DNA from: Pseudomonadota bacterium
Lineage (GTDB): Bacteria; Campylobacterota; Campylobacteria; Campylobacterales; Sulfurimonadaceae
DNA: 64,000 nt
Direction: 5' to 3'
NCBI GenBank assembly: GCA_043797085.1
Contig: JAZDQA010000013.1
Span: 160,001-224,000, forward strand
Positions 7,851-24,039 of the stretch are shown piece after piece; the first letter of the stretch is position 1; each line of letters starts with the position of its first letter. A program made the position numbers and the translations under genes. Under the pieces are notes generated by a model. The model was not told where the DNA came from, made no database searches, and saw only the letters and a list, made by a program, of their open reading frames with translations.

Positions 7851-8568
7851 GAGATGTTGCATTTGGATTACACGTAATCTTATGCTCCATGTCTACTTTC
7901 TCATAATTCTCCAACTCTCTCACGGATGCAACGGTCGCCGTACGATATCCCTCACCCTGATTCAAATAAATATTAAACCCATTTTCATAAAGAGCCAACC
8001 GTGTTGCTAACGCCATTGAGTAGGTGGTCACAATCCCCTCATTCCCCATCAGTCGTGCGATATCAGCAAAATACTCACGAGTCCAAAGCGCTGGGTTACT
8101 AGAGGGGCTAAATGCATCTTGATAACAGACATCCCATACCCCATCTAACTCTCTCATCGCAACCCGTGCATCGGTAATCTCAACCGTAATACGAGTCCGT
8201 TCATCCTCATATTGTCCACCAACAGCAAGCTCTGTAATCACCTTTTTGTATGGTTCAAAGATTTCAGGATAAGGAAAATCTATCAAAGAAGCAACCAGCG
8301 CACCATCCAATTCGGGAGAATAAATTTTCAGCGTCATATTAGGAAAATATCTATCACGATAATATAGGCTAAGAAGAGTATTAAAACCAAGCCCGAAACA
8401 AATATCGATGATTTTGAGATTATTTTTTTCGCGATGGAGCACAAAAGCAGGCTCAATGTGTTTTTTGAGTGATTCGTTTAACGCTCCATCTTTGGTCGAG
8501 TGGTAGTGCTCATCGTATTCGCTGCTGTATGCCGTATAGCTCCCATCTTCGCTCTCAACCCAGTTCAT
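7825..8568 (-). CDS. mnmD: Stand-alone MnmC-type tRNA mnm5s2U34 methyltransferase domain (MnmD/DUF752)
   Basis: EDGSYTAYS..YDEHYHS..GALNES, DICFGLGFN, YQDAFSPSSNPALWT; start moved to ATG 8568 (TGATG overlap). Confidence 0.85.
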   Translation of the reverse strand: MNWVESEDGSYTAYSSEYDEHYHSTKDGALNESLKKHIEPAFVLHREKNNLKIIDICFGLGFNTLLSLYYRDRYFPNMTLKIYSPELDGALVASLIDFPYPEIFEPYKKVITELAVGGQYEDERTRITVEITDARVAMRELDGVWDVCYQDAFSPSSNPALWTREYFADIARLMGNEGIVTTYSMALATRLALYENGFNIYLNQGEGYRTATVASVRELENYEKVDMEHKITCNPNATSLSDENLVL

Positions 8569-9047
8569 CACAACCCTGCTCCCCACATGTGCAACTTCTT
8601 AGCCACAATAACCTCATACCCATCGATCAAATCGATAATCGCATTGATCGCTCGAAATTCGACCTGATCGAGGAGTGATTCGACCTCAGCAATACTCATC
8701 GAACCGTTTTTTTGGACGATAATAATCTCGGAAGCGTTGAGTAATGTGCGGTAAAGTAACTCTAAAAATTTGCGCGGTGATTCATGCAGATGCAACACAT
8801 CCTGCACGATAACAGCAGCGTAATCGCGTGGAACTCCCCCTGCGGGAGATTTATAATCTTTAATCATAAAGGTTTTATGAAAAGTGGTATGGGTTAGACT
8901 TTGATGATTCCCCGGAAAAAGTGAAAAATCGATCAACCCCTCATAAGAGATGAGAAAATCACCCAATTCCTCCGTCATAGCGTCCAAATGGCTTGTCGCT
9001 ACCATGATTTTCGTATGGGGTGTCGGATGGAGAAGTTGGGTAATCAT
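8568..9047 (-). CDS. Hypothetical protein, weakly class I methyltransferase-like
   Basis: YAAVIVQDVLH..PRKFLELLYRTL resembles the C-terminal half of SAM-MTases; no GxGxG motif; overlaps both neighbours. Confidence 0.55.
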   Translation of the reverse strand: MITQLLHPTPHTKIMVATSHLDAMTEELGDFLISYEGLIDFSLFPGNHQSLTHTTFHKTFMIKDYKSPAGGVPRDYAAVIVQDVLHLHESPRKFLELLYRTLLNASEIIIVQKNGSMSIAEVESLLDQVEFRAINAIIDLIDGYEVIVAKKLHMWGAGL

Positions 9048-9352
9048 AGTGCCAAATCGTGCAACTCGCGGAAAAGATACGCTTCAACAATATCATCAAT
9101 AGTACGTTGTGTATGAGCGACCAAAACCATCATCTGATGCTCGATAAACTCCATCACCGGCTCATAATTGCCCGTAATGATAACCGCATCAAGCCAACCG
9201 TCGATTTCACTGCGATCGGTATAAAATTTAATTTCGACCACTTGCCCTTCCTCAACCTCAACAGTCGCCCAGTAGGTTGCGGATAAAATTCCGACGAGTT
9301 CACTCTCTTGAGTATCATCGCCGTTCATCGGTAACAAAAGCAACATAATCAA
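9044..9352 (-). CDS. Small acidic protein, NifB/NifX-like fold (tentative)
   Basis: beta-strand-P start, [22 protein letters not shown]; start may be ATG 9346. Confidence 0.5.
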
Positions 9353-9852
9353 TCTACCTTTGAGAGATCAAGCTTCAGCGCTTCATTATCCATAATATCG
9401 ATGTCTTTTCGGAGCACTTCGGCAGCAATCGCTTTCGCATCTTCGAGGGAATGCATTGCACATGTTCCGCATTGGTAGAGGTTGAGTTCAGGAATATCAC
9501 TTTGTTTTTCAACGGCAATCACATCATGCATAGAGGCTTCCCACGCTTCAACCACTTCCTCTTCCGTAGGAGCACCGATAACGCTCATATAAAACCCAGT
9601 ACGGCAACCCATAGGAGAGAGATCGATAATCTCCGTTTTAGCTGAGTTAAGATGGTCACGCATAAAGCCTGCGAACAAATGCTCTAACGTATGAATCCCC
9701 TCTTGAGATAAGATTGCCTCATTCGGACGGCAAAAACGTAAATCAAAAACGGTAATATCATCCCCCTTTGGAGTTTTCATCCCCTTTGCGCGACGAACGG
9801 CAGGTGCGGGCATAATAGTGTGGTCTACGGTAAAGCTATCTAGTAATGGCAT
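9349..9852 (-). CDS. luxS: S-ribosylhomocysteine lyase (AI-2 synthase)
   Basis: [32 protein letters not shown]; start moved to ATG 9852 with AAGGA RBS. Confidence 0.98.
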
Positions 9853-9886
9853 GTGCATCCTTAAAAAATTTATTTTAGTTGAGGCA

Positions 9887-9920
9887 ATGGTAACATATTT
9901 CATCCTTGAGGCGCTATAAT
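9887..9920. promoter_or_regulatory. Divergent -10 boxes for luxS and the aldolase
   Basis: Minus strand TGtTACCAT (9887-9895); plus strand TATAAT (9915-9920) ahead of an AAGGA RBS. Confidence 0.5.
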
Positions 9921-9943
9921 TTGGCAATTAATTAAGGAATATT

Positions 9944-11122
9944 ATGAAAAGCCTCTTTGACGATTCCATCGCCACCCGATATCAAAACGATCCACTGGCA
10001 GTACGGGTCTACACCTCTCAATTACTGGGTCAAAACAAAGACTTAGTCTTGCATGGAGGGGGAAATACTTCCGTAAAAATCGATGGTGTACTGTACGTTA
10101 AAGGAAGCGGATGGAATCTCGACACCATTGAAAAAGAAGGATTTTCTCCCGTTGATTTAGCCACACTCATAGAGATGGCCTCTCGTGACACTCTAACTGA
10201 TACTCAAATGGTCAAAGAGCAACGCGCCGCAATGAGCGATCAAAGCTTTCCAAACCCTTCTATCGAAGCAATACTTCATGCCATCATCCCGTTCACCTTC
10301 GTCGATCACACTCATGCCGATGCCGTTGTCACTCTAAGCAATACCCCTAACGGAAAAGAAATACTCGAAGAGCTTTATGGTGAGAACATGGTTATTATTG
10401 ACTATGTGATGCCGGGATTTGAACTGGCACGTCATATTTATTTACAAACTTTAGATCTAAATTGGAAAAATATTGAGGGAATTATTTTACTCAATCACGG
10501 TGTCTTTACTTTTGATAATGATGCCAAAAAAGCATATGAAAAGATGATAACACTTGTCACAAAAGCTGAAGATTACTTACAACAAAATGTCACTTTTCTT
10601 TCTAATACGAGCAAGGGAAATATCGACGTGGAGATTATTCGGTCATTAGTTCACGAAGTCGGCGTACTGCGCGGGTGTGATATTTTTCCCATCTTTTTGG
10701 ATTCCGACCAAGCCAAAGCACTCAGCACTCGCCCCAATTTAGAGCGACTCATCAAACAAGGCGAACTCACCCCTGAACACGTCATTCGCATCAAGCCTTT
10801 TCCTGCTATTATTAATACCGATTGTGCAAAAGGGATAGAAATATTTAAAACCGAGTATCAGAATTATTTTGATAAAAACAGCAATGCTAACCATATCTGT
10901 CTCGATCTGGCTCCTCGCTATGCGATTGTTAAAGGATTGGGGGCAGTTGCGCTGGGTAAAGATGAGAAAGAGTCTCGAATCATCGCCGATATCGTAGAGC
11001 ATACCATTACTGCAATTTTAAGTGCCGAACAGCTTGGAGCATGGACGTCTCTTAGTCTTGCACAGATGTTTGAGATGGAGTATTGGGAATTAGAGCAAAT
11101 CAAATTAAAGAACGCCAAATGA
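9944..11122 (+). CDS. Class II aldolase/adducin family protein (aldolase part of RhaEW/YuxG-like proteins, no SDR domain)
   Basis: LVLHGGGNTSVK, VKGSG, PSIEAILH, DHTHADA, LLNHG, EYWELEQ. Confidence 0.9.
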   Translation: MKSLFDDSIATRYQNDPLAVRVYTSQLLGQNKDLVLHGGGNTSVKIDGVLYVKGSGWNLDTIEKEGFSPVDLATLIEMASRDTLTDTQMVKEQRAAMSDQSFPNPSIEAILHAIIPFTFVDHTHADAVVTLSNTPNGKEILEELYGENMVIIDYVMPGFELARHIYLQTLDLNWKNIEGIILLNHGVFTFDNDAKKAYEKMITLVTKAEDYLQQNVTFLSNTSKGNIDVEIIRSLVHEVGVLRGCDIFPIFLDSDQAKALSTRPNLERLIKQGELTPEHVIRIKPFPAIINTDCAKGIEIFKTEYQNYFDKNSNANHICLDLAPRYAIVKGLGAVALGKDEKESRIIADIVEHTITAILSAEQLGAWTSLSLAQMFEMEYWELEQIKLKNAK

Positions 11123-11208
11123 GCAAAGCCCATTCGGCTACGCTCGCCGCTATGGCACTAAAGCTTGCCTCTGTCGAGGCAGATTAAATTACTGTACAAA
11201 GGAAAAAA

Positions 11209-11514
11209 ATGAAAATAACCAAAAAAGTAACTTTTATCGCTAAAGAGGAGCATATTTCTACGGTCAAAAAACTTCTAGAAGACATGGTAGCCCCTTCACT
11301 CAAAGAGCCTGGCTGTCTCTTTTATTACATCTTCCAATCTCAAAACAACCCGAAGAAATTCTTTGCCGTTGAGTCATGGGAAAATAACGAAGCACTTGAG
11401 GGGCATAAGCACACGGAGCATTATGCATACTATAAATCGCACTATGAACCATTTGTTGAGAATAAGTATACAGAAGATTTGGAACTTTTAGATGAAGAGG
11501 TGTATGGGTTTTAA
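11209..11514 (+). CDS. ABM-family protein, LsrG-like (putative phospho-DPD isomerase) or quinol monooxygenase
   Basis: SLKEPGCLFY, F..VESW, ALEGHKHTEHY; AAAGGA RBS; context of lsrK and luxS. Confidence 0.75.
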   Translation: MKITKKVTFIAKEEHISTVKKLLEDMVAPSLKEPGCLFYYIFQSQNNPKKFFAVESWENNEALEGHKHTEHYAYYKSHYEPFVENKYTEDLELLDEEVYGF

Positions 11515-13043
11515 ACTCCCGGAGCCTTCCACATAGGTTCTAACGTACTGTCACGGACAAGCTCCATCTGTTTGGCATAAACTCGTACCCATTTCTCTTT
11601 AACTTCTTGATAGGCATGAAAATTGGATTGATTTGGTTCATAACAACGCTCTATTTTTACAATATTTTGACCTGCTTCGTCAAAGCTTTTATAAATCCCT
11701 GCACCTATCCCGCACGCCATCGCTACACCCAATGCGGTGGCTTCTTTTACCACAGGGACTTTTACTTCCAATCCCGTAACATCGGCTAAAATCTGTGACC
11801 ATAACGCTCCATTTGACGCACCGCTTGCGAAGGTAAGCTGCGTTGGGGAAACACCGCTAAAGGCTTTTATGTTGTCAAGATTGATGGCACTTACGATGCA
11901 CGCATTTTCTTCCAACGCTCGAAACATGGAACCGATATTGTATTTGCTGCTGTCTAATCCAAGCCCAATAAACGATGGTGATGCGTGTATCCACTCTCCA
12001 TACTTCATGCTGTCGCTAAAAACAGGGATAATTCCATACGAACCGACGGGAATCTGTGATGCTAACGCTTCGAGCTGCGCGTAGCTTTTACCGCCACCTA
12101 ACGCATCTCGAAACCATCGCATCACAAGACCTGTAAAAAAAGTAATTCCCTCTGCTTGACTCATATCACGTACAACATGAGGATTTACACGCAATAGCAT
12201 ATCTCCTGAAAGTACTGTGTCTGAGGGTATATTGACCACTTGCTGCCAAAAACTTCCCCCTAACACAACCGCATCACCCAACTTATTTGCCCGAAGTCCT
12301 GCCGTACCGATTTGAACGTCACCACCCCCCATAACTACCAGAGTTTCAGGGCTTAAACCTGTCTCGTTGGAGGCTTGAAGGCTTATTTTTCCTAGAATAT
12401 CACCGCTTTCCAAGATAGGCACAAACAAATCTTTTAATCCGCATTGGCTGAACTGTTGCTTATCCCAATCACGATTTTTGAGATTAAACGCCCCTGCCGT
12501 CCCTGCATTGGAAGGCTCACTTGCTAATTCCCCACTGAGTTTAAACAGTATCCAGTCACTTATCATCGTAAAATAAGTTGCTTTTTCATACAAAGACAGC
12601 TGATTGTTTTTTAACCATAAAAGTCTTGGAGCTGCAGAAAGAGCAAATGTTTGCCCGCTTGATTGATAGAATTCTCTTTCCATATCAGGGTACGTATTTT
12701 TTAGAGTGCCAACTTCTAATCCAGAGCGACTATCGACATTTGCTACACCCCAAAGCTCATTCTTATCCTTATCATAAACGATAACTCCCTCACGCATGCT
12801 CGAAGCGGATAGCGCAATTATCTCTTTAGCATTTATCCCTGCTTTTACAACAACTTCTTTTATGCATTGTTTTGCCAATTCCCATCCATGGATAAAATCA
12901 AAGCCCATCGACCCTGCAATATTCTCTGACGCAATATGATTCCATTCATGTTGTGCAATCTCGATTTGATTTCCCAGCGTATCAAAAATGACAGCACGGA
13001 CACTTCCGGTTCCTGCATCTATACTTAAAAGATATTGCTTCAT
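11511..13043 (-). CDS. lsrK: Autoinducer-2 kinase
   Basis: LsrK-specific motifs over the full length: DAGTGSVRAVIFD, SMREG, ANVD.R, GQT.ALSA.PRLLWL, PSNAGT, GGGDVQ, FWQQVVN, RVNPHV, FRALEENA, terminal WKAPG. Confidence 0.93.
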   Translation of the reverse strand: MKQYLLSIDAGTGSVRAVIFDTLGNQIEIAQHEWNHIASENIAGSMGFDFIHGWELAKQCIKEVVVKAGINAKEIIALSASSMREGVIVYDKDKNELWGVANVDSRSGLEVGTLKNTYPDMEREFYQSSGQTFALSAAPRLLWLKNNQLSLYEKATYFTMISDWILFKLSGELASEPSNAGTAGAFNLKNRDWDKQQFSQCGLKDLFVPILESGDILGKISLQASNETGLSPETLVVMGGGDVQIGTAGLRANKLGDAVVLGGSFWQQVVNIPSDTVLSGDMLLRVNPHVVRDMSQAEGITFFTGLVMRWFRDALGGGKSYAQLEALASQIPVGSYGIIPVFSDSMKYGEWIHASPSFIGLGLDSSKYNIGSMFRALEENACIVSAINLDNIKAFSGVSPTQLTFASGASNGALWSQILADVTGLEVKVPVVKEATALGVAMACGIGAGIYKSFDEAGQNIVKIERCYEPNQSNFHAYQEVKEKWVRVYAKQMELVRDSTLEPMWKAPGV

Positions 13044-13264
13044 TTCATCTCTTTCATATTCACATCAAATTTCAATGAACTATTTTTAGTATTTTTTTGA
13101 TCAATCGACTTGATTTCCACATTACAAATACTGTCTTTAAGATTTTCTGCAAGAATCAGTAATTCTTCATGAGTATCGCGTATTGCAATTCCACGTGCAG
13201 AACATCCGACGACTCCACGGTTATTATAGGTCATTCTGTACATATAGTTCATTATCCAATACAT
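13040..13264 (-). CDS. Small hypothetical protein coupled to lsrK
   Basis: 74-aa ORF with ATGA overlap on the lsrK start; TACCAT -10 about 9 nt upstream; no clear RBS. Confidence 0.45.
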   Translation of the reverse strand: MYWIMNYMYRMTYNNRGVVGCSARGIAIRDTHEELLILAENLKDSICNVEIKSIDQKNTKNSSLKFDVNMKEMK

Positions 13265-18955: not shown

Positions 18956-19702
18956 TTATTTACTTTCTACTACCCGACCGTTCAACGGCTGAACAGGACG
19001 ATAATTGTGATCGTAAAATTTACGCAGTGCAGCAATCTGCTCTTTTGAAACACTTTGAACTTCTTTCATAACGTACCATTTTACGTTTTCACTGCACGGA
19101 GGAGTCGTCAATGAGCCCATAAAATGGAAATAGTTGTTCGTATTTTTCGGAAGCAGCTCTGCCGGATTTATTTCTGTCAATTTTCCAACCGAATCGAGCA
19201 CTTTTTGAACGACCTTATTGGGTGTTTTACCCTCTTCAAACAATACTGCGACAACTAAGAGACTCCCGAAGGCACTTTTATGAACCATATGGGCAACCGA
19301 ATCGTACTGCTTGCCATCAATTTGTTCTTCACTTTTTCCATGAAAATGAAATTGTGCCAAGGTATAATCGACACCGTCTACGTTGATCATCCCTCCCTTG
19401 TTCACATTTACTTGAATCGCATGCCCATTATCTAAAACATTTACCTTGGATTTTACACTTTTGTTCAAATGCAAAGTATTGGCAGTGTTAAATGATGACG
19501 TTTGTTTCGAGAGAATATTAATCGGCGATTGTGCTTTTCCAAGTTGACATGATTCACCAAACTCACCCCACTGATCTGGTCCATGCTCATCGTAGTTCCA
19601 ATGGACTTCATGTTTTGCAGTTGAAGCATGATGTTCTTGCGCGTGTCCTAAAGTCCCAACTAAAAATACTGCAACATTTAATGTTAAAAGAATTTTATTC
19701 AT
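18956..19702 (-). CDS. Periplasmic alpha-carbonic anhydrase
   Basis: QSPINI, NGH, QFHFH, HMVH, GSLTTPPCSE, NYRPVQPLNGR; signal peptide. Confidence 0.95.
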   Translation of the reverse strand: MNKILLTLNVAVFLVGTLGHAQEHHASTAKHEVHWNYDEHGPDQWGEFGESCQLGKAQSPINILSKQTSSFNTANTLHLNKSVKSKVNVLDNGHAIQVNVNKGGMINVDGVDYTLAQFHFHGKSEEQIDGKQYDSVAHMVHKSAFGSLLVVAVLFEEGKTPNKVVQKVLDSVGKLTEINPAELLPKNTNNYFHFMGSLTTPPCSENVKWYVMKEVQSVSKEQIAALRKFYDHNYRPVQPLNGRVVESK

Positions 19703-19719
19703 CGATTGCCTTTTTTTGG

Positions 19720-20421
19720 TTATTGTACGTCAACTACCTTGATATTTTTCTTTATCACCTCATCCACACCTTTGGCAATCAAAAGTACAAGCAGCCATGC
19801 GACAATCATTGTAATCACCGTATGACTCAAAAAATGATCCCCAATGAGCATCTTATAGCTTCCCATGCTCCCGCCGATGACGATTGCAGCACCACCAGCT
19901 GCGATTTTATTTCTTCGGTCTTGAAATAGAAAAATCAACGATAAGAGGGCAAACCCTCCGCTTGCATGACCGGCTGGCCAACATTTTTGTTTTTCTAGAT
20001 GACAATCTTTAGTTGCGTATTTTTCCCAAACGCAAGTATGTGGATAGGTTCCGTTAAAAATATCCAAACTTTTTGGACATGGCATATTCGAAACTGCTTT
20101 TAAAGAACCGACAACGAGAGGAACTGCGATAGAAGAAAGCACCACAATGATTAATCCGCGTCGATATGCCTTCATCCATTGTTTTTTCCATCCCAGAATC
20201 AAAACAAATAGAAAAAGAACCGCGATGACGATTAATAGACGTTTGATTCCGTCGTAAAAAATAAACTTGAGAACAGTATTGTTGGTATCAAGTATCCATT
20301 GATGGGTAATAGGATCATAAAAATGACTTTGCACCCAAATATCCGTAGGGCTTAAACCAAAAAAGAGGACTGCCACGACTAAAACGGTGGCAGTAATGAA
20401 AATATTTTTAGTGGACTCCAT
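19720..20421 (-). CDS. PAP2-family membrane phosphatase
   Basis: K.....CP, CWPAGHASGG, GDHFLSH. Confidence 0.85.
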   Translation of the reverse strand: MESTKNIFITATVLVVAVLFFGLSPTDIWVQSHFYDPITHQWILDTNNTVLKFIFYDGIKRLLIVIAVLFLFVLILGWKKQWMKAYRRGLIIVVLSSIAVPLVVGSLKAVSNMPCPKSLDIFNGTYPHTCVWEKYATKDCHLEKQKCWPAGHASGGFALLSLIFLFQDRRNKIAAGGAAIVIGGSMGSYKMLIGDHFLSHTVITMIVAWLLVLLIAKGVDEVIKKNIKVVDVQ

Positions 20422-22006
20422 GCAAGATGTCCAGCTCGCTTTGATATACAGAAGTCTTCACTTCACTCATCCCCAACAAAGTATGAAAGATAAAATCGTG
20501 AGTATACGCTTGTGAAGCATTTTGTTTTAGTTTTTCTTTATTTACCTGAAATTTTTCTCCAAACCACATGACCGCAGGGACATGCTTTTGTGCTTCCGGT
20601 GCAATGGCATAAGGAAAACCATGCAAATAAAGCCCTTTTTCTCCCAATGATTCTCCATGGTCACTTACATAAAACATCGCTGTTGCAAAGGTAGAATCGT
20701 TCTTTTGGAGCACATCGATTACCTTGGTTAAAAAATAATCGGTATATAAAAGAACATTATCGTACGCATTGGTGATCTCAGCTTGCGTGCATTGCTCTAA
20801 TTGATTGCTTTTGCAAACGGGAGTAAATTTCTCATACGCTTTTGGATAACGTTTATAATACGCCGGACCGTGATTTCCCATTTGATGCAGTACGATAACA
20901 ATATCCCCTTTCGGATGTGCATCGATGTACTCTTGCAAGCCAATGAGCATCCCCTCATCACGACACTCTCCATCCTCGCACATCGTATTTTTATCGGGTG
21001 ATTTAAAATCTTCATACGCTACACGAAGCGCGACCCCTTTGGAATCGGAGTTGTTATCCCTCCACAAAATATTCGCGCCAGAACGCTTCAAAATATCCAA
21101 AACATTTTCGGTATGCTTGGCTTTTTCTCCCTCGTACGATTCCCTGCCAAAAGAGGAAAACATACACGGTACCGATATAGCTGTTTCAGTACCGCAGGAA
21201 GTAAACTGGGTAAAATTGACAATATCTTCTTTTTTAAGCAACGGATTGGTTTCACGTCCATAACCATTAAGAGCAAAATGATCCCAGCGCACTGCTTCAC
21301 CAACGACTAAAATCATCAATTTACGATTTTCACTCGTCGGAACCGCTTTTGCATCTGCTCCTATAATCTGCAATCCGGTGTAGGGATGAGACAATGACTT
21401 TTGGATATAAGAACCCACGGAATAAAGATAATATCCCGGATTGGCGTAATAACGCAACGGCTTATGCTCTCTAAAAAATGAGGTGTAATTTTTACTAAAC
21501 GAGAATAAAAGTATCACAACAATACCCAAAGATATTCCAATCACTTTTCCCTTTTCGATCATTGTCATCTTAAAACTCATAGGTACAATTTTAAGTCGAT
21601 ACACGATAAAAGAGGGAATTACCCCTATCAAAAGTACATACAAAACAAGGGTGAGACTAAACAAATCAGCCGATTCGTTTAAATTTGTCTCCAATGTATT
21701 TTGGATCATATGCGTATCAATCACCGCATTATACGTATCCATAAAGTACGCTACAAAAGACGAAAGAATTAGAATTAGAATAAGGAGAGGCTTAATCGTA
21801 TGACGAAAACTAAATAAGGATAAAAGAATGGTCGTAACACTCATCAAAACCAATGCCAACGAAGCAATAAAAGCAACGGTGTCCCAAGAAAGAGGATAAA
21901 CCTCAATAACATGTTTGAAAAATGCCCCGTTTGCTACAAGCGTTAAAAAAAGAGCCACTCCAATAATAAGAAAACGTGATTTCACGCCAAAGGATTTAGT
22001 AAACAA
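20408..22006 (-). CDS. eptA: Phosphoethanolamine transferase (EptA/EptC family)
   Basis: 5 TM N-terminus, LVVGE, SCGTETAISVPCMFS, HQMGNHGPAYYKRYP, SDHGESLGEKGLYLHG. Confidence 0.93.
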   Translation of the reverse strand: MFTKSFGVKSRFLIIGVALFLTLVANGAFFKHVIEVYPLSWDTVAFIASLALVLMSVTTILLSLFSFRHTIKPLLILILILSSFVAYFMDTYNAVIDTHMIQNTLETNLNESADLFSLTLVLYVLLIGVIPSFIVYRLKIVPMSFKMTMIEKGKVIGISLGIVVILLFSFSKNYTSFFREHKPLRYYANPGYYLYSVGSYIQKSLSHPYTGLQIIGADAKAVPTSENRKLMILVVGEAVRWDHFALNGYGRETNPLLKKEDIVNFTQFTSCGTETAISVPCMFSSFGRESYEGEKAKHTENVLDILKRSGANILWRDNNSDSKGVALRVAYEDFKSPDKNTMCEDGECRDEGMLIGLQEYIDAHPKGDIVIVLHQMGNHGPAYYKRYPKAYEKFTPVCKSNQLEQCTQAEITNAYDNVLLYTDYFLTKVIDVLQKNDSTFATAMFYVSDHGESLGEKGLYLHGFPYAIAPEAQKHVPAVMWFGEKFQVNKEKLKQNASQAYTHDFIFHTLLGMSEVKTSVYQSELDILHGVH

Positions 22007-22076
22007 AAAACAACCTTATCTAAAATAAAAAAGTGTCGAATAATAATCTATTTTCGATTAACATTGCGTAAACCTT

Positions 22077-22094
22077 GGTTATTAGCTAATAACC
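22077..22094. promoter_or_regulatory. Perfect 18-bp palindrome, candidate operator
   Basis: GGTTATTAGCTAATAACC, 3 nt upstream of TATAAT (22098-22103). Confidence 0.55.
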
Positions 22095-22128
22095 CCTTAT
22101 AATACTACATTCCATTCATGAGGGCTTT

Positions 22129-24039
22129 ATGCGCATATTCAAAGAACTTTTTAAAATCTATTTCCTTTTTATCACTCTTTTCGTTTTGGGACGACTTGGG
22201 CTTTATATTCTATACGCTGATCGCTTGCATGATATTACATTTGCTGAATCTCTTTTGTCTTTTTTATACGGGCTCAAACTCGATACGATGACCACTTCGA
22301 TCATTCTCATCATCCCTGCTCTCATCCTCTCACTGACTCCCCAGTATTTTTCTCGACTTGCTGCACGTTTTCTTAATGGCTATGTCTTAGTATTTTTACT
22401 CCTAGCGGTATACATCGAAAACGCGACCTTCCCTTTTGTCGCACAATACGATGTTCGCCCTAACTATCTCTTCGTCGAGTATTTAAAATATCCCCAAGAA
22501 GTCTTATCGATGATTCTCAAAGAGTATCCGATGCAGCTTGTAGTGGCTTTTATTATGCTGATGTTTACGGCATGGCTTTTCGTACGCTTTTCACCCCTAA
22601 AATTTGAAGAGACACTCTCAACACCTCTATGGAAACGTTTTTTACTTCTTTTACCTATTGCTGCCTTACTCTTTATCGGCATCCGCTCCTCTTTAGGTCA
22701 TCGTCCCGCCAACGTCTCCGACGCGCTGTACAGTACTAACCGTATGGCAAATGAGATTGCCAAAAACTCTCTTTACAGTATCGGTGATGCTTATTACAGT
22801 TATTCAAAAGAGTCCGACAAGCTTGTAAACAGCTATGGAAAGATTGATTTAGCCGAAGCCTACCAACGTGTTTCTGTGCGTCTCAATATACCACAAGAAA
22901 GTAATTTCCCCTTTAATCGTCCTGAGCCAACCCATTTTTCTTCATCAAAACCTAAAAATTTGGTAATCTTTATCCAAGAGTCCTTGGGTAGTCAATTTGT
23001 CGGATTTAGCGGAGGCGACGTGAGCATCACCCCCAATCTTGAAAAGCTCTCTCACGAAGGATTGGCATTTACCAATCTCTTCAGCAACGGAACCCGCTCG
23101 ATTCGAGGACTTTCTGCTATGAGCTCAGGATGGCTTCCATTAGCAGGAGAGGAAGTTGTAAAACGAAATAAATCTCAAAGTGATTTTTTCACTGTCGCCT
23201 CATTGTTAAAACCGCTTGGGTATAAATCAAGCTTTATTTATGGTGGCGAAGGGCGCTTTGACAACATGCGCAGTTGGTATATGGGAAATGGTTTTGATGA
23301 AGTGATCGAACAAAAAGATTACAAAAATCCGAGCTTTGTCAGTACATGGGGAGTCAGTGATGAAGATTTAGTAATCAAAGCCCATGAAAAGTTCAAAGCT
23401 CATGACCTTAAAGGAGAGAAATTTGTCAGTGTCATGTTCTCCTCCTCCAACCATTCACCCTTTGAGCTTCCCGATGGAAAAATCGAATTTATGAAGGACA
23501 AACCGCGTCAAGGGGTAGAAAATGCAGTGAAATATGCCGACTTTGCAATCGGACGCTTGTTTGAACTAGCCAAAAAAGAAGCCTATTATAAAAATACCGT
23601 CTTTGTAGTCGTTGCCGATCATAACGTCCGTGTCTACGGAGACGATCTCGTACCGGTCAATATGTTCCATATCCCCGCACTCATCATTGCCGATGGATTA
23701 AAGCCTCAAAAATTTGATCGCCTTAGCACGCAACCTGATGTTCTTGCTACTGCACTTGATCTCATTGGTGTAAACTTTAGCTATCCCGTCTTAGGACACT
23801 CTATTTACAGCGATAACAAGCAAGAGATGGCGCTGATGATGTTTAACGATACGTTTGCCCTTCGTGTCCATGACAAAGTAGCCATCATTCAGCCCAACAA
23901 AGAACCGCTTACATTTACCTATGAACATGAGCATTTAAAATCTGCTTCACACGATAAGGAACTTGAAAAAGATGCGCTGGCGTTTGTAAAAGTGATGGAT
24001 GATATGTATAATAAGAAATTGTATCAGATGAAGAAATAA
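22129..24039 (+). CDS. LTA synthase/OpgB-like sulfatase-fold membrane phosphotransferase
   Basis: 5 TM N-terminus, IFIQES, GTRSIRGL, WGVSDED, SSSNHSPF, VADH. Confidence 0.9.
   Translation: MRIFKELFKIYFLFITLFVLGRLGLYILYADRLHDITFAESLLSFLYGLKLDTMTTSIILIIPALILSLTPQYFSRLAARFLNGYVLVFLLLAVYIENATFPFVAQYDVRPNYLFVEYLKYPQEVLSMILKEYPMQLVVAFIMLMFTAWLFVRFSPLKFEETLSTPLWKRFLLLLPIAALLFIGIRSSLGHRPANVSDALYSTNRMANEIAKNSLYSIGDAYYSYSKESDKLVNSYGKIDLAEAYQRVSVRLNIPQESNFPFNRPEPTHFSSSKPKNLVIFIQESLGSQFVGFSGGDVSITPNLEKLSHEGLAFTNLFSNGTRSIRGLSAMSSGWLPLAGEEVVKRNKSQSDFFTVASLLKPLGYKSSFIYGGEGRFDNMRSWYMGNGFDEVIEQKDYKNPSFVSTWGVSDEDLVIKAHEKFKAHDLKGEKFVSVMFSSSNHSPFELPDGKIEFMKDKPRQGVENAVKYADFAIGRLFELAKKEAYYKNTVFVVVADHNVRVYGDDLVPVNMFHIPALIIADGLKPQKFDRLSTQPDVLATALDLIGVNFSYPVLGHSIYSDNKQEMALMMFNDTFALRVHDKVAIIQPNKEPLTFTYEHEHLKSASHDKELEKDALAFVKVMDDMYNKKLYQMKK

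What the first reader, a model, noticed from the sequence alone, without database searches (positions are those of the whole stretch)
9349..13264. Compact AI-2 'make-and-recycle' module: luxS + class II aldolase + LsrG-like + lsrK, without transporter, lsrR or lsrF
Seen: luxS is divergent (91-bp spacer with -10 boxes on both strands) from an aldolase and ABM gene pair, which converge on a full-length lsrK. No lsrACDB, lsrR or lsrF lies in this window. Established: in enteric bacteria LuxS makes DPD, LsrK phosphorylates imported AI-2, LsrG isomerises P-DPD and the thiolase LsrF gives DHAP + acetyl-CoA; that operon is built around uptake and is not linked to luxS. Campylobacter jejuni and Helicobacter pylori have luxS but no Lsr system. 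Inference: synthase and catabolic enzymes clustered without an importer or sensor point to intracellular capture of DPD, i.e. salvage of the ribose carbon of SAH rather than quorum sensing. That would suit a carbon-limited autotroph; the pyruvate synthase operon is adjacent.
Basis: partly seen in the sequence, partly recalled or inferred. Interest (0 to 1): 0.85.

Follow-up and report, generated by a model that had tools for sequence, protein, structure and literature searches.

The report
Importer-free AI-2 recycling pathway
This sulfur-oxidising bacterium carries the AI-2 kinase gene lsrK beside luxS, with no known AI-2 importer, repressor or LsrF, and two uncharacterised partner enzymes accompany the kinase across free-living Campylobacterota, so the set likely forms an undescribed route that turns the cell's own signal by-product DPD back into central metabolites.

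Summary
The four genes are real and placed as described; the host is most likely Sulfuricurvum. LuxS and LsrK pass their curated cut-offs. The ABM protein does not pass the LsrG cut-off. The aldolase is a stand-alone, two-domain RhaD/FucA-type enzyme. The 96%-complete genome shows no LsrF, LsrR, LsrC/D-type permease, SahH or MtnK/MtnA.

The conserved unit is kinase + aldolase + (ABM or cupin). In 201 Campylobacterota genomes the same 15 carry LsrK and the aldolase, and all 15 carry the ABM and/or a cupin. The luxS link is mostly a Sulfuricurvum feature (26 of 37 loci against 0 of 43 elsewhere, plus one independent operon). The pyruvate-synthase neighbourhood belongs to luxS anyway.

Likely route: DPD → phospho-DPD → isomer → DHAP + acetate, with the class II aldolase replacing LsrF. 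Its closest paralog sits beside mtnK-mtnA (DHAP shunt), whose substrate is a near analogue, and one motif residue separates the two groups. Nothing is assayed, and an internal versus external source of DPD is not settled. This scan reported the cupin version three times on other DNA; ten literature searches found no description.

The parts
9349..9852 (-). luxS, S-ribosylhomocysteine lyase (167 aa); makes DPD and homocysteine
   Evidence: NF002602 299 bits, cut-off 197; PF02664; single copy
9853..9943 (.). 91-bp divergent promoter region
   Evidence: length; conservation
9887..9895 (-). extended -10 box (TGnTAnnAT) facing luxS, predicted promoter
   Evidence: 39 of 39 distinct divergent spacers; position
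9915..9920 (+). TATAAT -10 box facing the aldolase, predicted promoter; decayed in three loci from strains that lack the module
   Evidence: 39 of 39 spacers; L161, L162, L167 keep the luxS box but not this one
9944..11122 (+). stand-alone class II (FucA/RhaD-type) aldolase-family enzyme, 392 aa, two tandem aldolase folds; proposed LsrF replacement
   Evidence: PF00596; model pLDDT 93; domain 1 matches 3m4r Z 31, FucA/DrdA Z 17-19; domain 2 matches the same clan Z up to 10.7; E108, H122, H124, H185 invariant in 82 stand-alone rows
11123..11190 (.). REP-like palindromic repeat, not specific to the module
   Evidence: 25 blastn hits in the genome, this copy included
11209..11514 (+). ABM-fold protein (101 aa) of an LsrK-linked subfamily; proposed phospho-DPD isomerase in the place of LsrG
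   Evidence: PF03992; below LsrG cut-off; E55, H66, H71 invariant in 28; strong homologs only in LsrK genomes
11511..13043 (-). lsrK, AI-2 (DPD) kinase, 510 aa
   Evidence: NF008187 728 bits, cut-off 528; E. coli LsrK 5ya0 E 2e-163; all 10 putative DPD-site residues of PMC8016206 present and invariant in 24 diverse homologs
13040..13243 (-). conserved 67-aa gene of unknown function whose stop overlaps the lsrK start; host-locus gene, not part of the module
   Evidence: about 40 Sulfuricurvum homologs with the same start; present in seven loci from strains lacking lsrK; no Pfam hit

Best explanation
LuxS makes DPD inside the cell, LsrK likely phosphorylates it, the ABM protein (a cupin in other lineages) likely isomerises phospho-DPD as LsrG does, and the class II aldolase-family enzyme would then cleave the isomer to DHAP and acetate in place of the thiolase LsrF, so that the ribose carbon of S-adenosylhomocysteine is likely recovered without uptake or sensing. 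Shown: gene identities, absence of the other lsr families, co-occurrence, intact catalytic residues. Inferred: every reaction after LuxS, the products, and that the DPD is self-made. Chemical basis (inference): the hydrated LsrG product is 5-deoxy-pentulose-1-phosphate with a gem-diol at C4. That sugar is what the DHAP-shunt class II aldolases split into DHAP and acetaldehyde, so the same metal-enediolate cleavage would release acetate, with no CoA needed.
For: Kinase above the LsrK cut-off with 10 of 10 putative DPD-site residues. Own genome has Pfs-family nucleosidase and LuxS but no SahH, so DPD is an obligate product. No PF01791, PF04198 or PF02653 hit. Phylum sample of 201: LsrK over cut-off in 15, aldolase at E<1e-110 in the same 15 (one further weak hit), strong ABM in 13 of them, strong cupin in 4 including the two without ABM. 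Relatives draw of 61: 33 of 35 LsrK genomes have the aldolase. Outside Sulfuricurvum 35 of 43 kinase loci have aldolase, ABM or cupin within 3 kb. Thiomicrospira-family draw: kinase and aldolase in the same 3 of 5 genomes, all 3 with luxS. Of 80 LsrK genomes 77 have no LsrF-clan gene, 68 no PF02653 permease and 65 no MtnA. Own genome lacks mtnK/mtnA, so the aldolase has no DHAP-shunt substrate. Five of seven fused paralogs sit beside mtnK-mtnA. The TP-E-H motif is in 240 of 240 stand-alone hits against TP-D-H in 119 of 120 fused hits. A second luxS link exists as an aldolase-kinase-cupin-luxS operon in another family (the kinase tree needs at least 2 changes). TIM and acetyl-CoA synthetase are present.
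Against: No enzyme has been assayed. luxS is within 3 kb of the kinase in 0 of 43 loci outside Sulfuricurvum. luxS is in 59 of 61 relatives, so 'module implies luxS' has almost no power. The ABM fails the LsrG cut-off, and generic ABMs outrank LsrG in the PDB search. Both halves of the aldolase match epimerases, decarboxylases, dehydratases and dioxygenases about as well as aldolases. In G024 and G215 the only aldolase hit is the fused form with the D motif beside mtnK-mtnA, so the E motif is not required in every LsrK genome. A 2026 preprint reports AI-2-utilising isolates without LuxS or LsrACDB, so uptake without Lsr exists. The genome has an AI-2E-family transporter and an RbsB-like binding protein coupled to a GGDEF/EAL sensor. 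Recalled, not read: vent Epsilonproteobacteria release AI-2 activity into the medium. Twelve of 36 congeners show no lsrK, so the route is dispensable.
Confidence: 0.5

Rival explanations
1. The same three enzymes mainly consume AI-2 from the surroundings (scavenging or signal quenching in mats and biofilms), taken up by diffusion or a non-Lsr transporter.
For: Module usually unlinked to luxS; AI-2E-family gene and an RbsB-like binding protein in the genome; Lsr-independent AI-2 use reported.
Against: No transporter cluster recurs beside the kinase loci; 68 of 80 LsrK genomes lack PF02653 and the four top hits classified are LivH/Urt types; the binding protein lies beside a c-di-GMP sensor, not a permease; two independent luxS links.
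Confidence: 0.2
2. LsrK does trap self-made DPD, but the downstream chemistry or purpose differs: the class II enzyme isomerises, oxidises or cleaves at another bond (for example giving phosphoglycolate or glyceraldehyde phosphate), and the benefit is removal of a reactive diketone rather than carbon gain.
For: The fold family is catalytically diverse; ABM and cupin folds include oxygenases; methyl-cycle flux is probably small next to CO2 fixation (inference); in E. coli the DHAP shunt does little for endogenous by-products (PMC10986504).
Against: Phosphate loop, catalytic glutamate and three metal histidines of DHAP-dependent aldolases are intact; the nearest paralogs sit with mtnK-mtnA.
Confidence: 0.2
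3. The kinase acts on another small sugar, and the trio is a kinase-isomerase-aldolase salvage set for it; luxS is a bystander at an insertion site.
For: Kinase-isomerase-aldolase is the generic layout of deoxy-sugar pathways; luxS-porB adjacency predates the module; databases label the aldolase 'rhamnose utilization protein RhaD'.
Against: Kinase passes the LsrK equivalog cut-off, next family at 161 bits; DPD-site residues invariant; no sugar permease or recurrent sugar gene nearby; no other FGGY kinase in the genome.
Confidence: 0.1

Closest known systems
Lsr AI-2 uptake and processing system of E. coli and Salmonella (lsrRK, lsrACDBFG)
   Same: LsrK-family kinase with conserved substrate-site residues; a small ABM-fold partner like LsrG; DHAP as the likely end product.
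   Different: No LsrACDB, LsrR or LsrF; the ABM is outside the LsrG family and swaps with a cupin; a metal-dependent class II aldolase-family enzyme accompanies the kinase instead of the class I-fold thiolase; linked to luxS in Sulfuricurvum and one other family.
DHAP shunt / 5-deoxyribose salvage (MtnK/DrdK, MtnA/DrdI, Ald2/DrdA; PMC6079011, PMC10986504)
   Same: Kinase-isomerase-class II aldolase logic for a SAM by-product; same aldolase fold and catalytic residues; the fused paralog of this aldolase lies beside mtnK-mtnA.
   Different: The kinase is FGGY/LsrK, not MtnK; no MtnA in this genome or in 65 of 80 LsrK genomes; the proposed substrate comes from SAH, not MTA or 5'-deoxyadenosine; the proposed co-product is acetate, not an aldehyde.
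Bifunctional RhaD-aldolase/short-chain dehydrogenase (TIGR02632, PRK08324)
   Same: N-terminal ~390 aa homologous (45-51% identical to fused Campylobacterota forms).
   Different: No SDR domain in the gene or an orthologous one in the genome; below all family cut-offs; TP-E-H instead of TP-D-H; no rhamnose genes nearby.

Membership tests
Lsr system | LsrK-family AI-2 kinase | tested here: met
   NF008187 728 bits vs 528; 10 of 10 putative DPD-site residues
Lsr system | LsrACDB importer with LsrB receptor | tested here: not met
   No PF02653; the single PF13407 protein is RbsB-like, shows no LsrB model hit and lies beside a GGDEF/EAL gene; genome 95.9% complete
Lsr system | LsrR repressor | tested here: not met
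   No PF04198 hit in the genome; not searched in relatives
Lsr system | LsrF thiolase (class I aldolase fold) | tested here: not met
   No PF01791 hit; 3 of 80 LsrK genomes have one, all PRK06852 aldolases
Lsr system | LsrG-family isomerase | tested here: not met
   33 bits vs cut-off 135; LsrG ranks 7th among PDB ABMs
Lsr system | ATP-dependent phosphorylation of DPD and conversion to DHAP | not testable with these tools
   needs enzyme assay
DHAP shunt | MtnK (or MtnP) plus MtnA supplying pentulose-1-phosphate | tested here: not met
   No tblastn hit for MtnK or MtnA in the genome; no TIGR00512 hit
DHAP shunt | Class II aldolase fold with catalytic glutamate and three metal histidines | tested here: met
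   DrdA 6btg Z 17.9, rmsd 3.2, 175 aligned
RhaD-aldolase/SDR fusion | C-terminal short-chain dehydrogenase domain | tested here: not met
   Gene ends at residue 392; only 22-34% SDR hits elsewhere in the genome

The most novel reading that the evidence does not exclude
Free-living, largely chemolithoautotrophic Campylobacterota and some Thiomicrospira run a CoA-independent 'DPD shunt', the missing SAH arm of SAM by-product salvage. It was built by recruiting a DHAP-shunt class II aldolase, with one Asp-to-Glu change in its second domain, to act as a C-C hydrolase on a hydrated diketone. LsrK then works as a housekeeping carbon trap, and Lsr quorum sensing would be a later elaboration of such a route.
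Probability: 0.35. Interest if true: 0.8.

Novelty: new variant of a known kind. Interest (0 to 1): 0.62.

Why it matters
Whether AI-2 is a signal or a metabolic by-product in most luxS bacteria is a long-standing question (PMC2561040), and a 2026 preprint names Lsr-independent AI-2 degradation as an unknown route. This module gives three small soluble enzymes, in cultured strains such as Sulfuricurvum kujiense DSM 16994 (aldolase) and Sulfurimonas indica (full operon), that can be assayed on DPD at once. A positive result would add a new reaction for class II aldolases, two unrelated isomerases for one step, a function for a large misannotated 'RhaD' family, and a CoA-free AI-2-quenching cassette.

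Tried and rejected
Generic promoter scan: 11 sites against 10.3 expected, none in the spacer; only conservation supported the two boxes. The 74-aa ORF as a fifth module gene: rejected, present without the module. Pyruvate synthase adjacency as evidence: rejected; luxS directly follows porB in G037, G050, G056 and G057, where the kinase lies elsewhere. RbsB-like protein as LsrB/LuxP: no LsrB model hit and no LsrB or LuxP entry among 49 PDB hits; its ligand and co-occurrence were not tested. Sequence-profile test for the internal duplication of the aldolase was inconclusive (probability 9%); the fold search then supported it. Residue-level comparison with LsrG: not obtained, because the primary paper was not held and the search returned unrelated papers; recalled LsrG residues fit E55/H66/H71 by spacing, but generic ABMs share them. 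RNA runs: one groundwater metatranscriptome has near-identical contigs over parts of all four genes and the flanking porB/porA, but contigs cannot show transcription. The aldolase tree is the quick IQ-TREE run with a long-branch outgroup, so the direction of recruitment between fused and stand-alone forms is not established. dCACHE-type AI-2 receptors were not searched. No complex prediction was run.
Full report
Observation. The window holds luxS (9349-9852, minus), a 91-bp spacer, a 392-aa Aldolase_II gene (9944-11122, plus), a 101-aa ABM gene (11209-11514, plus) and lsrK (11511-13043, minus). LuxS and LsrK pass their NCBIfam cut-offs (299 vs 197; 728 vs 528 bits). The ABM scores 33 against 135 for LsrG. 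The aldolase matches positions 1-401 of the 657-position aldolase/SDR model and stays below every cut-off. The closest named kinase relatives (76-96% identical) are mostly Sulfuricurvum, so the host is taken to be that genus. A consensus promoter scan was at chance level, but an extended -10 box toward luxS and TATAAT toward the aldolase are in 39 of 39 distinct spacers.

What the genome lacks and has. In the 95.9%-complete assembly there is no hit for PF01791 (LsrF clan), PF04198 (LsrR), PF02653 (LsrC/D-type permease) or PF05221 (SahH); the controls rang for each. A Pfs-family nucleosidase is present, so SAH should pass through Pfs and LuxS and yield DPD (pathway as in PMC8016206, passages). 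The one PF13407 protein is RbsB-like and lies beside a GGDEF/EAL sensor. MtnK, MtnA and the cupin gave no tblastn hit. An AI-2E-family gene, acetyl-CoA synthetase and triosephosphate isomerase are present.

The conserved unit. In a draw of 61 relatives, 35 have the kinase. The aldolase has 35 strong hits and 2 weak ones that I dropped; 33 genomes have both. The two aldolase-only genomes have the gene within 200 bases of a contig end; the two kinase-only genomes are 83% and 90% complete. Strong ABM hits occur in 31 of the 35 and in no kinase-free genome (2 weak hits dropped). In 201 genomes of the phylum, 15 pass the LsrK cut-off and the same 15 have the aldolase at E<1e-110, with one further weak hit. 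Thirteen of the 15 have the ABM at E<1e-26 (43 other genomes have only weak generic ABM hits). Four have a specific cupin, including both that lack the ABM (6 weak hits dropped). The two largest families sampled (83 and 64 genomes, unnamed) have no kinase over the cut-off. Kin are not independent, but the 15 span six family codes, and the genes co-occur even when unlinked. Outside Sulfuricurvum the usual layout is one strand, ABM-aldolase-kinase or aldolase-kinase-cupin: of 43 loci, 31 have the aldolase, 20 the ABM, 6 the cupin and 35 at least one within 3 kb (many loci end at contig edges). The kinase is within 3 kb in 15 of 21 cupin loci from metagenomes. In 5 Thiomicrospira-family genomes the kinase and aldolase share the same 3, all with luxS.

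What kinase genomes lack. I searched 80 of 88 kinase-bearing genomes chosen (eight short-contig loci dropped for the size limit). PF01791 hit 3, all PRK06852 aldolases. PF02653 hit 12; the four top hits I classified are LivH or urea permeases, the rest were not classified. MtnA hit 15.

The luxS link. luxS lies within 3 kb of the kinase in 26 of 37 Sulfuricurvum-type loci and 0 of 43 others. luxS directly follows porB in four other families whose kinase is elsewhere, and kinase-free Sulfuricurvum loci show porB, the 67-aa gene, then luxS. So the module sits in an older porB-luxS junction, and the pyruvate-synthase argument falls. Signs of secondary loss exist: a decayed aldolase beside luxS in G032, and a decayed aldolase-facing box in L161, L162 and L167. 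One independent link was found: a tight aldolase-kinase-cupin-luxS operon in G180, another family; the FastTree kinase tree needs at least two changes. luxS is in 59 of 61 relatives, so co-occurrence with luxS cannot discriminate.

The enzymes. All ten residues named as the putative DPD site of E. coli LsrK (PMC8016206, passage) have identical counterparts (T12, S82, M83, R84, D242, V243, F265, Q267, E298, I300) that are invariant in 24 diverse homologs. The aldolase model (pLDDT 93) matches an uncharacterised Thermoplasma domain best (Z 31) and then FucA, YgbL and DrdA (Z 17-19). Residues 226-392 folded alone match the same clan in the top 15 rows (Z 10.7 to 5.5), so the protein is a tandem of one active and one probably metal-free domain. 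The GGGNTS loop, E108, H122, H124 and H185 are invariant or nearly so, matching the glutamate-plus-metal mechanism described for DrdA (PMC6079011, passages). Seven fused aldolase-SDR paralogs form one group in a quick tree, and five lie beside mtnK-mtnA, the DHAP-shunt layout (PMC10986504, passages). Two positions separate stand-alone from fused rows, E278/D and S369/A. The motif is TP-E-H in 240 of 240 stand-alone hits and TP-D-H in 119 of 120 fused hits (the hit sets are the top 120 of three searches and are not independent lineages). That this motif of domain 2 completes the pocket for the leaving fragment is an inference from recalled FucA structure, not tested.

Mechanism. In E. coli LsrG turns phospho-DPD into a hydrated trihydroxy-pentanone phosphate and LsrF transfers its acetyl group to CoA, releasing DHAP. 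That intermediate is DHAP carrying a hydrated acetyl group, a close analogue of 5-deoxyribulose-1-phosphate, which DrdA/Ald2 cleave to DHAP and acetaldehyde. A class II enzyme related to the shunt aldolase would therefore plausibly release acetate, which AcsA could activate. This explains why the aldolase tracks the kinase, why LsrF is absent, why no dehydrogenase domain is kept, and why mtnA is usually missing. It also fits G024 and G215, whose only aldolase is the fused form, if that form can serve both routes. All of this is inference.

Against. No assay exists. The fold supports many reactions. The preprint 10.64898/2026.06.09.730415 (passages and sections 9-10) reports AI-2-utilising isolates without LuxS or LsrACDB, so missing Lsr transport does not prove internal use. 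I recall, without access to the paper, that vent Epsilonproteobacteria release AI-2 activity. The carbon gain is probably small, and removal of a reactive diketone is an equally possible benefit.

Prior knowledge. Ten full-text searches found no description of LsrK with a class II aldolase or in these genera. In one search only 30 of 578 listings were shown, none mentioning lsrK, and most subscription journals are not held. PMC3420918 (passages) does not mention these taxa or a cupin. PMC2561040 (passages) finds no lsrB in Helicobacter or Campylobacter. PMC6302742 (passages) does not mention LsrK. Three earlier AI reports of this scan describe the cupin version on other genomes. I saw them after forming my reading; they are not independent evidence. 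This report adds the ABM variant, the ABM/cupin exchange, the status of the luxS link and the DHAP-shunt paralog.

Verdict. Real, conserved, and not a member of the canonical Lsr system, though it likely works like its catabolic arm. New variant of a known kind; best explanation 0.5; interest 0.62.

Noticed in passing
window 11123-11190: REP-like palindromic repeat between the aldolase and ABM genes, with 25 blastn hits across the genome and many unrelated contigs sharing it in sequencing runs.
   Followed up: partly
window 13040-13243: Conserved 67-aa Sulfuricurvum gene with two cysteines and no Pfam match, between porB and lsrK or luxS; missed by ORF callers with a long cut-off.
   Followed up: partly
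window 9044-9352 and 8568-9047: Two hypothetical genes follow luxS; the first also follows luxS in L195 and L196 from other genera. The Atlas gives only unnamed Campylobacterota clusters and a weak PF02579 lead.
   Followed up: partly
L140:548-4299 (G000:C11:132047-135798): RbsB-like periplasmic binding protein directly upstream of a 943-aa GGDEF/EAL sensor, the only PF13407 protein in the genome; ligand unknown, a candidate sugar or AI-2 sensor.
   Followed up: partly
L054:7480-9042 (G035): One Sulfuricurvum genome has a divergent lsrK (52% identical, against 74-89% in congeners) at the same locus, suggesting replacement in place.
   Followed up: partly
L146, L147, L149, L115, L184: Fused class II aldolase-SDR genes beside mtnK-mtnA: an apparently undescribed DHAP-shunt variant with a built-in dehydrogenase.
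   Followed up: partly
L145:1715-2425 (G032): Decayed aldolase remnant beside luxS in a strain with no kinase or ABM hit.
   Followed up: no
window 18956-24039: Carbonic anhydrase-like gene followed by PAP2-like, phosphoethanolamine transferase-like and sulfatase/LTA synthase-like genes (judged by eye, not scanned).
   Followed up: no
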